64,000 nucleotides of DNA from Octopus sinensis (taxonomy: Eukaryota). The stretch is taken from positions 97,526,001 to 97,590,000 of the forward strand of contig NC_042998.1 of the NCBI RefSeq assembly GCF_006345805.1, written 5' to 3'. Position 1 is the stretch's first letter. The number at the start of each line of letters is the position of its first letter. Made by a program: the position numbers and the translations under genes. Below are positions 36,195-61,258 of the stretch, piece by piece. The notes under the pieces are model-generated. The model worked only from the letters and a program-made list of their open reading frames with translations, ran no database searches and was not told where the DNA came from.

Positions 36195-36800
36195 TTAATA
36201 AGGGGTAAATACCCTGAAACTAGTCTGCAGATGCCTGACCAGCAAGGGGAAGCAGCTGACCTCCCCTGTTCAAAGGTTATAATGGACACAAGCTAGAGGC
36301 GATGGCCTCTTGGAGCTAATCAATGGCAGCATCCGTCCTATATTTCTGGACTGCCATATTAGTTTGATGATAACTATTAATATCCAGTACCGCTGCCATA
36401 GTCTCCCTTAGAGAGACTTAGAAATTTCAATATTTCTATTTTTGAAAAGTAGTAGATGTATTCCACTGAATTTAGGTAAATAATCCTTCGAACAGACAGT
36501 TAGTAGTGATGCCTGTTGGGTTCAGCTGCTCTGCATCGATAAGGGGCAAATACCCTGAAACTAGTCTGCAGATGGCTGACCAGCAAGGGGAAGCGGCTGA
36601 CCTCCCCTGATTGAAGGTTATAATGGACACAGGTTCGTGTGTCACATAAGCTAGCTAGAGGCGATGGCTTCTTGGAGTTAATCAACAGCAGCATTTGTCT
36701 TATATTTCTGGACTGCCATATTAGCTTGGTGATAACTATTAATATCCAGTACCGCTGCCGTAGTCTCCTTTAGAGAGTCTTAAAAATGTTAATATTTATT
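36195..36800 (+). mobile_element. About 1.8 tandem copies of a 341-bp unit carrying a hammerhead motif (Penelope-like pLTR or retrozyme-like)
   Basis: ATAAGGGG(T/C)AAATACCCTGAAACTAGTCTGCAGATG recurs at 36198 and 36539 and similarity continues for about 250 bp. The 3' end abuts (TA)n. No ORF. Confidence 0.65.
36530..36572 (+). ncRNA. Minimal type I hammerhead ribozyme-like motif, U3-A8 (plus U4C) core variant
   Basis: TCTGCA-TCGATAA-GGGG CAAATA CCCT-GAAA-CTAG-TC-TGCAGA: stem I TCTGCA/TGCAGA (extendable by CAGCTG/TGGCTG), 7-nt core, stem II, GAAA, palindromic stem III ACTAGT, GUC cleavage triplet. Confidence 0.65.
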
Positions 36801-37582
36801 TATATATATATATATATATTGCAAACACCTAACACATGCATATATATATTGGATGAAGTAGAGAACATATGAATTAATTAATTTATATCAAATACTATGC
36901 ATGTCCTGCCTTTTAGATTAGTTAGGTGTTACTATGGCATATATGAGATAACTAGAAGAGTTAGCATCAAGAAGGCCATCTGGCTACAAGACACCACCTT
37001 AACATGTCCCTTACAATGCATGCCAGCATGGAAAAGCAGGCAAAAAAATGATGATTGTAATGATGATGATGATGATGATGATGATGATGATGACAAAGAA
37101 GATGATGATGATGATAATGACAAAGAAGATGATGATGACCCTGAAGTTGGGTTTTTTCTAAGTTTGCAAAAACCACAAAATTATTTTAATGCCAGGTGAG
37201 AAATACTTTATTGCATATTAATTAATTCACGTGGCCAATGATATGTTATGGTTTTTTATCCCCCACCTCTGATTATCAAATGTATACTGTCAGAAGAGTA
37301 TGTGTGGTTCTAACCACACACAAGTTGATGAGATCCAGCTGAGCTTCAATTGCAGTTACTGCATTCTGAGACCTGATTTCCCTCTCTTGAAGTTATAATC
37401 ACAAATTAGTCTCTTTAACAAGGTAAGAAATATCTCTGATACACATGCGCATGCATACGCATGTATTTCATATCCACACACATGCACACACGAATATGTG
37501 TGTGTGTATATGTGTATATATATATGTGTATATATATGTGTGTGTATGTATGTATGTATGTATGTATGTATATATGTATTTA

Positions 37583-38484
37583 TGTATAAACCATAAAAAG
37601 TCAGAAGTTATGAGAAGTGAACATATTTATTTAACCAAGTGACTGTTAGCTGAGTCTATAAGAGTAGCTTTCTGTGATAACCACATGATTCTCTGAATCC
37701 ACATCCTATACTACTCATTTATAACTGTCTATCTATCTATCGATCTATCTATCTATCTCCGTAGGCTTTTCTTTCCATGGGTAAACCTCACCTGTCTTCC
37801 CCTTTACAATTTATATTGACATTTCTGTGATAACGATCCCTATTGATTGAAAACCAACCCACGTTTTTGTTTTTTTTTTATCCCCCAAAAGAAAAGCTCT
37901 ACCTTGTAATTTGTCCCGTCTGTGTGCAGCCCTGTGTGGCTAATAAAGAAACATATCTATCTATCTATCTATCTCTATCTCTCTACTTATATATATAATA
38001 AAACATATGCATACATACATACATACATATATGTACATACCTACATCTATATGTATATATACATGCATATATGAGTACAGGACACCACAAATAAACGTAG
38101 AACACAACAAGAAATGAAAACATAAAATCAAACAAGGAAACGGACTTTTTTTAACAATGAAAAAACAGTACAAGACAAACAATACAAGGAACATTCCCCT
38201 TCTTCAGCTGCCCCTGCTTCGACTCAATGCTATATATATATATATATATATATATATATATATATAGAGAGAGAGAGAGAGAGAGAGAGATAGATAGATA
38301 GATAGATAGATAGATAGATAGATAGATAGATAGATAGATAGATAGATAGATAGATAGATAGATTGAAATGAGTAGTATAGGATGTGGTTATCACAGAAAG
38401 CTACTCTTATAGACTCAGCTAACAGTCACTTGGTTAAATAAATATGTTCACCTCTCATAAGTCCTTATTTTTTATGGTTTATAC
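37583..38484. repeat. Inverted repeat (arms about 37583-37720 and 38366-38484) enclosing microsatellites and two short repeat fragments
   Basis: GTGAACATATTTATTTAACCAAGTGACTGTTAGCTGAGTCTATAAGAGTAGCTTTCTGTGATAACCACAT has its exact reverse complement at 38382-38451. The symmetry extends to the flanking (TATG)n/(CATA)n outside and (TATC)n/(GATA)n inside. Confidence 0.85.
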
Positions 38485-39402
38485 ATACATACATACATAC
38501 ATACATACATGTATATTAGTGTTTTCCAAACTGTTCCAGTTAGTGACACACTTTTTAAACATACATAATTTAAGTTTTATGTAAACCTAATGTTAATTAT
38601 TTTGATATAATCTACCATGGCTATACGATGCAGATGCATAAATTAATTTTAATAGCAGAATGTGTCAAGAAAACCTTTCATTTATATTTCATAAATATAT
38701 AATTTGTAAGCAAAATAAAATGCATCTTCAAGAGAAATCATTTCTTCAAGAGCTATCATTTATCAATAATAATCTGTAAATATGTGCAAGGATTAATAAA
38801 AAAAATAACTTTTTAACTTACTATTTCATACATGAGATACATGAGATTGATGGGAAGAACAGAGATTTGGGATTTTAGGTTGAATAATAGATAATAACAC
38901 TTGCATTTCACTATCAAGCATTTTCAAGTTTTCCCTGCATGCCTGTATTAATTTTATTCAATGTTCAAATATGTCTGAAAGATATGCCAATTTGGTGCAC
39001 CAAAGTTCATCTTGAATCAGATTGTGAAATTCATTCAGTTGGTTTTCTTGAAAAAGTTTAAGCATCATACCGCTGAATTTGTATGCACAATTTGTATCAC
39101 ATAACCTTTTGAAAGCCAATGAACCTGTGTGTAGTAGACGTTTCTTGAAATTTGCTCATATTTCTTCACAAATATGAGCAAATGATTTTGATTTAAGAGG
39201 TCTACTTTTGATATAATTGACCATTTGAACCACTTCATTTGTAACTCTTCATAAATCAATTCCAACAATGCAAAAACAATGAGTAATTATATTTGTAGTC
39301 TCTTTTTTTGCTAGAGTTGTAAAATCTTTTACTGAACCTACCATTGAGAGTGTGCCATTTGTGCATATCCCTACACAGTTTAACCATAACAAATTATTTT
39401 CC

Positions 39403-60556: not shown

Positions 60557-60840
60557 AAGGCAAGCAGTAAAATATCTGCTTTCTCTGTCTTTCTCTTTTT
60601 TGGTCACTGCTCTTACTATGACTGAAAGCAAGCAGTCGAAAATTTGCTTTCCATTGACAATTTAACATGGATGAAAGGCAAGCAGTAAAATATCTGCTTT
60701 CTCTGTTTTTCTTGGTCACTCACTCATTTTTTTGTTTTGTCCTTCTTTTTTATGCTCCTTTCTCAAAAATAATAGAATACAAAGAAAATAATATCACTGC
60801 TCTTACTATGACTGACAGCAAGCTGTAAAAAATTTGCTTG
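60557..60840. repeat. Interleaved direct repeats of about 30-45 bp
   Basis: GAAAGGCAAGCAGTAAAATATCTGCTTTCTCTGT at about 60557 and 60673; TCACTGCTCTTACTATGACTGA.AGCAAGC at about 60604 and 60794. Confidence 0.75.
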
Positions 60841-60933
60841 TTCTGGCCTTTCTTTCTCTTGATCACTTTATACTAAGAAATGAAGGAATGTGAAATAAAA
60901 GTAAATATGACTACAATGAATCTAGTGAATTAT

Positions 60934-61258
60934 TTCGTTTTGGGATTTGGTTTGCAAAATTCTTTATGTGAGTTCGTGTGTTGAAGCATATTTTATTGTG
61001 TCTGGAGAGAGTCATTTACTTTTAGTGCCTTATAATTTAACACACTCACCGGTAAAATTTCTACTCATTTACTTATTTATTTTTCTAAAATTTTCATTAC
61101 ATCTTGCAACCTTTTCAATAGTTGTTGACTCAAGTGAAAATGTTGCAAGATGCAACGAAAATTTCGGAAAAATAAATAAGTAAATGAGTGGAAATTTTAC
61201 CAGTGAGTGTGTTGAATAATAAGGCACTAAAAGAGAATGACTCTGCCCAGACACAACA
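60934..61258 (-). mobile_element. Penelope-like insertion with about 120-bp inverted arms and a degenerate U3-A8 hammerhead-like motif
   Basis: Arms 60996-61117 / 61136-61256. Imperfect flanking direct repeat GAATCTAGTGAATTAT (60918) / GAATCTGGTGAAATTAT (61259). Minus strand 61121-61085 reads CTA-TTGAAAA-G-GTTGC AAGAT GTAAT-GAAA-AT-TT-TAG; the other arm has a perfect GTTGC/GCAAC stem II. Confidence 0.6.

What the first reader, a model, noticed from the sequence alone, without database searches (positions are those of the whole stretch)
36195..61258. Three unrelated short retroelement insertions each carry a minimal hammerhead with a swapped 3-8 core pair
Seen: insertions at 36195-36800, 39403-39719 and 60934-61258 share no obvious primary sequence, yet each gives stem I - 7-nt core - stem II - GAAA - palindromic mini stem III - UH - stem I. 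The cores are UCGAUAA, GUGAACA and UUGAAAA instead of CUGANGA. Positions 3 and 8 remain Watson-Crick complementary in all three (U-A, G-C, U-A) and G5, A6, A9 and GAAA are kept. Established: C3-G8 is a tertiary pair that tolerates compensatory swaps, and Penelope-like elements and retrozymes carry minimal hammerheads with a palindromic stem III that are thought to work as dimers. Inference: this lineage may host abundant non-autonomous retroelement families using non-canonical hammerheads that CUGANGA-based screens miss. I cannot confirm whether these families are already described.
Basis: partly seen in the sequence, partly recalled or inferred. Interest (0 to 1): 0.85.

Follow-up and report, generated by a model that had tools for sequence, protein, structure and literature searches.

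The report
Swapped-core hammerheads in Penelope retroelements
The three inserts are pieces of Penelope-type jumping genes, each carrying a hammerhead RNA motif (a predicted self-cutter, not tested here) in which a key core base pair is swapped; one swap is already published, while the reversed G-C pair occurs about 7,000 times in this genome and was not found reported as natural in the papers I could search.

Summary
The three motifs are real (3 descriptor hits in 64 kb; shuffles average 0.07) and the swapped 3-8 pairs are family states, not decay: U-A in 35/38 F1 copies, G-C in 68/78 F2, U-A in 64/69 F3, canonical C-G in none. Corrections: F1's family core is UUGAUAA (the window's C4 is private). 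F2 and F3 are homologous, not unrelated. F3 is the 3' pseudo-LTR of a coding RT + GIY-YIG Penelope-like element (13/14 endonuclease loci). The same lineage includes C3-G8 families, one intact and one with a decayed copy at window 47735, so one lineage holds C-G, U-A and G-C cores with compensated stem II. Genome-wide counts in one frame: G-C 7,333, U-A 5,200, C-G 2,088, A-U at background. A separate canonical family adds 14,223. F1 is a tandem ~365-nt retrozyme-like unit; parents of F1 and F2 were not found. Natural U3-A8 in Penelope hammerheads is published; natural G3-C8 was not found in four searches, but two key papers were unreadable. Cleavage is untested, and copies derive from uncleaved RNA. 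An earlier scan note mentions similar swaps in a phage.

The parts
36198..36433 (+). F1 first monomer, 5'-truncated inside the hammerhead core
   Evidence: BLAST of the unit on L001, q100-356; sequence
36440..36795 (+). F1 second monomer (unit about 361-365 nt, head-to-tail); last ~50 nt form the optional tail
   Evidence: direct copies end at q356, inverted ones at q305-307; same-strand spacing 365 and 729 nt in G000
36530..36572 (+). F1 type I hammerhead: stem I 6 bp, core 36536-36542 (U3-A8; private U4C at 36537), stem II 4 bp, GAAA, palindromic CUAG, predicted cut 36566|36567
39391..39402 (.). F2 left target-site duplication (12 nt)
   Evidence: identical to 39720-39731, read directly
39403..39600 (-). 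F2 full ~198-nt unit: 5' end near 39600, hammerhead, ~55-nt tail at 39403-39457
39539..39589 (-). F2 minimal hammerhead: stem I 7 bp, core GUGAACA (G3-C8) 39582-39576, extra G, stem II 5 bp, GAAA, palindromic AUAU, U17
39600..39719 (+). F2 inverted second copy, 5'-truncated and tail-less; core at 39601-39607 lacks the 5' strand of stem I
39720..39731 (.). F2 right target-site duplication
47688..47890 (+).
   Evidence: C3-G8 in 17 of 21 aligned copies
60918..60929 (.). F3 left target-site duplication (11/12 match to 61259-61270)
   Evidence: read directly
60932..61130 (-). F3 full ~199-nt unit = 3' pseudo-LTR of a coding Penelope-like element, with ~55-nt tail
61085..61121 (-). F3 minimal hammerhead: stem I 3 bp, core UUGAAAA (U3-A8) 61118-61112, extra G, stem II 5 bp, GAAA, A-AU-U palindrome, U17
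61134..61258 (+). F3 inverted second copy, 5'-truncated and tail-less; position 3 here is a junction-derived G
61259..61270 (.). F3 right target-site duplication

Best explanation
The three inserts are copies of Penelope-like retroelement ends that carry a type I hammerhead motif whose 3-8 core pair is swapped at the family level (U-A, G-C, U-A), and the pair was likely kept by selection for a weak, probably protein-assisted and dimeric self-cleavage that is predicted but untested. Shown: F3 is the 3' pseudo-LTR of a coding RT + GIY-YIG element; F2 is its homologue; both insert with a tail, an inverted truncated copy and a target duplication of about 10-13 nt. Inferred: a Penelope RT-endonuclease nicks AT-rich DNA and starts reverse transcription inside the RNA at one of two sites about 55 nt apart (giving the tail). 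It copies uncleaved RNA back to a preferred 5' stop just upstream of stem I and often folds back to make the inverted arm. F1 is a separate ~365-nt tandem, ORF-less, retrozyme-like unit, likely moved in trans by the same kind of machinery. Since insertion likely does not need cleavage, lineages could pass through a mismatched 3-8 state, and weak selection on master copies would then restore pairing.
For: Family-level cores. Genome-wide counts with reversed-pattern controls: G3-C8 7,333 vs 119; U3-A8 5,200 vs 572; C3-G8 2,088 vs 176. No mismatch family is visible: G3 + non-C8 938 vs 1,076; C3 + non-G8 778 vs 388, the listed hits mostly one-step decay of F3/F5. Across 15 hand-picked copies of four homologous families, the 3-8 pair is CG7/GC4/UA4, two stem II pairs change on both sides, 100% of cells pair and slid controls reach 9-56%. 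F1 keeps stem III palindromic through CUAG/CAUG (28 and 6 of 40) and 10.1-11.1 paired through G-U/A-U (22 and 15 of 39). F3 lies 420-720 nt behind the GIY-YIG stop, same strand, in 13/14 loci (one is the query's own locus), ending at q198-199 (8) or q133-143 (5). TSD of 8 nt or more: 18/26 F2 and 15/28 F3, vs 26/650 and 54/756 mismatched pairs. G3-C8 persists in diverged F2 relatives at 59-71% identity, and no other letter reaches 10% at the core in runs of four other organism labels. PMC11167929: internal RT start explains the tail; C3G/G8C partly rescues cleavage; cleavage needs the protein and is dispensable for insertion in vitro. PMC8557442: tail and inverted 5'-truncated copies are Penelope hallmarks.
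Against: No cleavage data. No 5' end at the predicted cut site in 30 tail-selected F2 loci or 19 tail-selected F1 loci (judged by eye on a rough alignment); only one F4 copy starts there (L218). The youngest intact family (F4) has C in place of the conserved A9 in 7/7 copies. F3 stem I is only 3 bp. F2 and F3 have U17. Within families the core is barely better conserved than the flanks. Only about four families carry the covariation, so the independent events are few, and no tree was built. No coding parent was found for F2 (0/39 copies with shared upstream sequence; none among 20 more) or for F1. Fold z-scores of single copies are modest (-2.4, 0.0, -1.5).
Confidence: 0.75

Rival explanations
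1. The motifs are Penelope pseudo-LTR hammerhead folds kept for structure (protein binding or RT positioning), not for cleavage; the 3-8 pair is held by the fold alone and the ribozymes are effectively inactive.
For: Copies come from uncleaved RNA; the youngest intact family has A9C; cleavage is dispensable for insertion in vitro and no cut-site reads were seen for PAc (PMC11167929); minimal hammerheads cleave poorly (PMC4209133).
Against: G5, A6, G12-A14, A15.1-U16.1 and a non-G at 17 are kept across the families. The 3-8 pair forms in the active conformation (established knowledge, recalled). The engineered G3-C8 swap partly restores cleavage in a Penelope hammerhead.
Confidence: 0.17
2. Founder effect: each family inherited a drifted core from one master copy and the pairing is coincidence.
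For: Few independent families; no excess core conservation within F2; A9C and U4C master-level changes exist in this genome.
Against: Every expanded family seen is Watson-Crick at 3-8: F1, F2 and its relatives, F3, F4, F5, the intact elements L098/L180 and the L028 family. Both swaps need two changes. Mismatch classes show only decay-level excess (U3 + non-A8 was not counted).
Confidence: 0.05
3. F2 and F3 are MITEs or foldback DNA transposons whose long inverted arms happen to contain the motif.
For: Long inverted repeats flanked by target duplications.
Against: The arms are asymmetric (55-nt tail on one side). Many copies are single and uninverted or variably 5'-truncated. F3 sits behind an RT + GIY-YIG ORF in 13/14 loci.
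Confidence: 0.02

Closest known systems
Minimal hammerheads in pseudo-LTRs of Penelope-like elements (Cervera & de la Pena 2014, PMC4209133; read parts 1-2 of 4 of the main text and part 1 of 3 of supplement file 2)
   Same: Type I fold, extra nucleotide between 9 and 10.1, G10.1-C11.1, palindromic stem III, thousands of solo copies, opposite-strand pairs, and a U3-A8 variant (about 1,300 hits in Schistosoma).
   Different: G3-C8 is not mentioned in the parts read or found by term search of the supplement (file 1 not searched). Here C-G, U-A and G-C occur in one homologous lineage.
PAc Poseidon element of Anolis (Frangieh et al. 2024, PMC11167929; read parts 1-2 of 4)
   Same: Two 3' ends giving a tail; AT-rich targets; first 3' end about 115 nt after the start of stem II (111-118 in PAc); uncleaved RNA as template.
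   Different: PAc has C3-G8, and G3-C8 was made there only as a mutant. The tail here is about 55 nt rather than 30-40. The F3 parent has a Cys-rich linker before the endonuclease (Neptune/Nematis-like by PMC8557442; clade not placed on a tree).
Non-LTR retrozymes (Cervera & de la Pena 2020, PMC7229834, passages; Li et al. bioRxiv 10.64898/2026.07.22.740005, part 1 of 5 and passages)
   Same: F1 is a head-to-tail ~365-nt ORF-less unit with a type I hammerhead of 6-bp helix I and 4-bp helix II, like the 350-390-bp mussel units.
   Different: F1 has U3-A8, occurs mostly as dispersed partial tandems with a Penelope tail and inversions, and circular RNA is not shown.
Natural hammerhead core variants (Perreault et al. 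2011, PMC3088659, passages)
   Same: U3-A8 covariation reported in nature.
   Different: The passages seen name only U3-A8 at this pair.
Lunse, Weinberg & Breaker, RNA Biol 14:1499 (title seen in a reference list; text not held)
   Same: Small Penelope-associated hammerhead variants cleaving as dimers (from the title).
   Different: Could not check whether it lists G3-C8 cores.

Membership tests
Penelope-like element (EN+) pseudo-LTR | Lies at the 3' end of an ORF with RT and C-terminal GIY-YIG endonuclease (F3) | tested here: met
   13/14 loci; GIY-YIG over the Pfam cut-off; YVDD motif seen directly; Pfam RT did not hit this 428-aa fragment
Penelope-like element (EN+) pseudo-LTR | Same, for F2 | tested here: inconclusive
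   Homologous to F3/F4/F5, but no coding parent found
Penelope-like element (EN+) pseudo-LTR | Same, for F1 | tested here: inconclusive
   Not behind any of 70 endonuclease loci (one unlinked inverted fragment in L107); upstream neighbours are further monomers
Penelope-like element insertion | Optional tail, inverted 5'-truncated copy, AT-rich target with duplication | tested here: met
   TSD counted for F2 and F3 only
PLE minimal hammerhead | Type I topology, G5 A6 A9 G12 A13 A14 A15.1 U16.1 H17, paired 3-8 | tested here: met
PLE minimal hammerhead | Extra nucleotide between 9 and 10.1 and G10.1-C11.1 | tested here: met
   F2 and F3. F1 lacks both (R10.1-U11.1), so F1 is not filed here.
PLE minimal hammerhead | Palindromic 15.1-16.1 segment allowing a dimer | tested here: met
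   A-CUAG-U or A-CAUG-U, A-AUAU-U, A-AU-U. Cofolding predicted the stem III dimer only for F1.
Hammerhead ribozyme | Site-specific self-cleavage | not testable with these tools
   needs RNA assay
Rfam hammerhead families | Match to an Rfam covariance model | tested here: not met
   No hammerhead hit at E<=10 for F1 or F2 copies, but none for canonical-core F5 copies either, so the miss is not due to the swap. F3 was scanned only, where 157 of 307 rows were not shown.
Non-LTR retrozyme (F1) | Short head-to-tail ORF-less units each with a type I hammerhead | tested here: met
   mostly partial dimers, not long arrays
Non-LTR retrozyme (F1) | Circular RNA monomer made by self-cleavage | not testable with these tools
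   only assembled contigs available
MITE / foldback DNA transposon | Symmetric terminal inverted repeats defining both ends | tested here: not met
   asymmetric arms, solo and truncated copies

The most novel reading that the evidence does not exclude
F2 is a naturally evolved, active G3-C8 hammerhead present about 7,000 times in one animal genome and shared with related species. It belongs to a single Penelope lineage that has sampled three of the four Watson-Crick options at the catalytic 3-8 pair (C-G, U-A, G-C; no A-U family found) by independent double changes, not yet described in print. This would be a natural compensatory-evolution series showing that Penelope hammerheads are selected for catalysis even though insertion uses uncleaved RNA.
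Probability: 0.4. Interest if true: 0.65.

Novelty: new variant of a known kind. Interest (0 to 1): 0.48.

Why it matters
The role of Penelope hammerheads is open: they cleave poorly, are dispensable for insertion in vitro (PMC11167929), and it has been suggested they may merely parasitise the elements (PMC8557442). A homologous series with C3-G8, U3-A8 and G3-C8 cores, compensated stems, an intact protein-coding member and a recent A9C change gives a direct natural test of whether catalysis is what is selected. Practically, CUGANGA-only screens would miss at least 12,500 motifs here, about 43% of the paired-core matches in the two frames counted.

Tried and rejected
Rfam scans: no hammerhead among the rows shown. 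Pfam PF26215 is not in the library. Search for the F2 parent: 70 GIY-YIG loci; 30 tail-selected, 39 5'-selected and 20 pattern-selected copies; the P0001 family turned out to carry a different repeat, F4. An endonuclease fragment beside L321 is in the opposite orientation. F1 parent not found; the 1,368-nt spacing in L346 holds no coding sequence. A3-U8 class: 194 vs 208 control; the 14 loci fetched were truncated copies, a canonical family with a long stem II, or unrelated. Unbiased sample limited to 200 kb: one intact F2 motif, one F1 fragment, one canonical motif, no F3. Expression: no RNA holder listed; contigs cannot show cut ends. Literature searches for natural G3-C8: searches found none. 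PMC3884650 (passages) mentions only a laboratory G3-C8 variant. PMC5785218 and PMC5850863 were not held. PMC6765202, PMC6155905 and PMC6962438 were seen as passages and add nothing on this pair. The U3 + non-A8 mismatch class was not counted. No tree was built, and the last script did not run.
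Full report
Observation. The window is AT-rich, microsatellite-laden DNA from a 2.72-Gb genome. A protein labelled Octopus vulgaris matches intact elements of this genome at 97-99%, so the host is very likely an octopus. The three motifs are present. A descriptor with positions 3 and 8 left free finds exactly three hits in 64 kb, all paired at 3-8, against 0.07 per shuffle and 0/200 shuffles with three (thresholds chosen after seeing the motifs). 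I call the families F1 (36198-36795), F2 (39403-39719) and F3 (60932-61258).

Family states. Own-genome searches gave 2,640, 3,877 and 5,019 first-look candidates, of which 40 each were scored and 30 each fetched. Across all fetched copies spanning the core, the 3-8 pair is U-A in 35/38 F1, G-C in 68/78 F2 and U-A in 64/69 F3; none is C-G. For one search I dropped seven duplicate loci and the 39 loci chosen on the F2 ribozyme itself; its F1 rows were offset by one base and are replaced. The window's UCGAUAA is a private U4C change. F1 shows internal compensation: loop III CUAG (28/40) or CAUG (6/40), both palindromes, and 10.1-11.1 G-U (22/39) or A-U (15/39). Within families the core is about as conserved as the flanks (F2 0.972 vs 0.967, F3 0.958 vs 0.936, F1 0.977 vs 0.940), as expected for copies decaying after insertion.

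Anatomy. F2 and F3 are ~198-nt units. In the window each is a hairpin of a full copy and an opposed, 5'-truncated copy that stops at unit position ~140-147, leaving a ~55-nt tail on one side. Target duplications of 8 nt or more occur in 18/26 F2 and 15/28 F3 loci, against 26/650 and 54/756 mismatched pairs (some hits are TA-rich). The window's own duplications are 12/12 (F2) and 11/12 (F3), read directly; one search missed both because the alignment ran into them. F1 is a ~365-nt head-to-tail unit with the same signature: direct copies end at q356, inverted ones near q306. Tail and inverted truncated copy are described hallmarks of Penelope-like elements (PMC8557442, passages), and internal RT initiation at two sites explains the tail (PMC11167929).

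Link to coding elements. The genome has thousands of GIY-YIG candidates. One locus (L108) had F3 behind its endonuclease. Searching with that protein, 13 of 14 fetched loci (one being L108 itself) carry F3 on the same strand 420-720 nt after the stop, ending with the tail (8) or without it (5). The ORF has a YVDD motif, a Cys-rich linker and a Pfam GIY-YIG hit; all fetched copies are broken. F3 is therefore the solo pseudo-LTR of a once-autonomous element. No parent was found for F2 or F1. F2 has a preferred 5' boundary about 20 nt before the core, with no shared upstream sequence in 39 copies; five copies extend ~22 nt further.

One lineage, three cores. F2 and F3 align end to end, also outside the ribozyme (0/500 shuffles). 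The closest database protein (P0001, 60% identical to the F3 parent) belongs to an intact young family with stop-free frames of 882-1,120 aa. Its pseudo-LTR, F4, shares the tail and stem II frame but has C3-G8 and, in 7/7 copies, C at position 9; related copies with A9 exist. F5, with a copy in this window at 47735, has C3-G8 in 17/21 copies. On 15 hand-picked copies the 3-8 pair reads CG7/GC4/UA4 and two stem II pairs change on both sides, with 100% of cells paired vs 9-56% for slid controls (relatedness inflates the shuffle test). Outside the ribozyme F3 is nearer F5/F4 (94/144, 81/132) than F2 (84/155), and diverged G3-C8 relatives group with F2 (105/148, 87/148). Two independent swaps from C-G are the simplest reading, but no rooted tree was made. 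F1, the intact elements L098/L180 (7 of 30 endonuclease loci by descriptor; L180 by eye) and the L028 family are further U3-A8 cases.

Genome-wide counts for one frame (hits vs reversed-pattern control): G3-C8 7,333 vs 119; U3-A8 5,200 vs 572; C3-G8 2,088 vs 176; A3-U8 194 vs 208; G3 with non-C8 938 vs 1,076; C3 with non-G8 778 vs 388, mostly single-step decay among the 100 listed. Hairpins count twice. A different canonical family gives 14,223 vs 0, so canonical motifs remain at least as common. In contigs of four other organism labels the F2 core shows no alternative letter at 10% or more.

Mechanism. Shown: the motifs, their family-level pairs, the insertion signatures and F3's parent. Inferred: target-primed, internally initiated reverse transcription by a Penelope protein on uncleaved RNA. 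Copies keep sequence upstream of the cut site, and none starts at it in 30 F2 loci or 19 F1 loci (by eye); one F4 copy does (L218). This matches PAc, where cleavage is protein-assisted and dispensable for insertion and where C3G/G8C partly rescues activity. Dispensability would let a lineage cross a mismatched state; the absence of expanded mismatch families suggests weak selection restores the pair. Against strong selection for catalysis stand A9C in the youngest intact family, the 3-bp stem I of F3 and U17 in F2/F3. Catalysis itself is untested.

Novelty. U3-A8 is published for natural hammerheads (PMC3088659, passages) and for Penelope minimal hammerheads (PMC4209133). G3-C8 appeared only as a laboratory variant in what I read, and four searches found no natural report. 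However, Lunse et al. and Arkhipova et al. 2017 were not held, file 1 of the PMC4209133 supplement was not searched, bioRxiv supplements are closed, and subscription papers are outside the library. An unchecked scan note (e1-5996897) names U3-A8 and G3-C8 swaps in a phage array, part of which later fell. Verdict: a new variant of a known kind.

Noticed in passing
window 47688-47890 (+): A fourth, older member (F5) of the F2/F3 lineage with canonical C3-G8 core; G12 is decayed in this copy; 2,501 first-look candidates.
   Followed up: yes
L264:4964-5011, L265, L266, L268-L271: The youngest intact element of the lineage (P0001 family) has C instead of the conserved A9 in 7/7 pseudo-LTR copies and a non-palindromic stem III segment.
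   Followed up: partly
L208, L222, L310, L317, L320, just upstream of the F2 5' boundary: A ~22-nt extension resembling a branch point, pyrimidine tract and AG, ending right at the usual F2 start (one copy has GAG rather than YAG). PMC4209133 reports an intron end at helix I in D. virilis Penelope. It may be a 3' splice site or only a transcription-start region.
   Followed up: partly
window 39403-39495 (-) and 60932-61015 (-): The tail regions of F2 and F3 read as open ~30-codon frames from an ATG with shared residues (LPR.N...TR..I..LA.Q), possibly the ORF start overlapping the pseudo-LTR as in PAc. Not confirmed on a full-length copy.
   Followed up: partly
L180:174-1613 and 1532-3877; also L183: Intact Penelope-like elements with an upstream 479-aa ORF overlapping the 781-aa RT + GIY-YIG frame (possible frameshift), ending in a U3-A8 hammerhead motif.
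   Followed up: partly
L003, L004, L205; 14,223 genome matches: A very large canonical-pair family in which many copies read CCGA at positions 3-6, so U4C may be a master-level variant there, with CTGA arising by CpG decay (inference).
   Followed up: no
L218:2761-2940: One F4 copy begins at the predicted cut site, the only such case seen.
   Followed up: no
window 39588-39600 and 39458-39470: The first ~12 nt of F2 are complementary to unit positions ~130-143, so the 5' boundary and the first RT start lie at the two feet of one predicted long-range stem.
   Followed up: no
window e.g. 1431-1620, 10401-10590, 10782-10971, 51282-51471: Abundant SINE-like repeats, one kind ending in ATG runs (families D15, D16, D19, D20).
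   Followed up: no
L101: A GIY-YIG hit whose translation looks like a cellular nuclease exon (SLX1-like, recalled) rather than a Penelope endonuclease.
   Followed up: no
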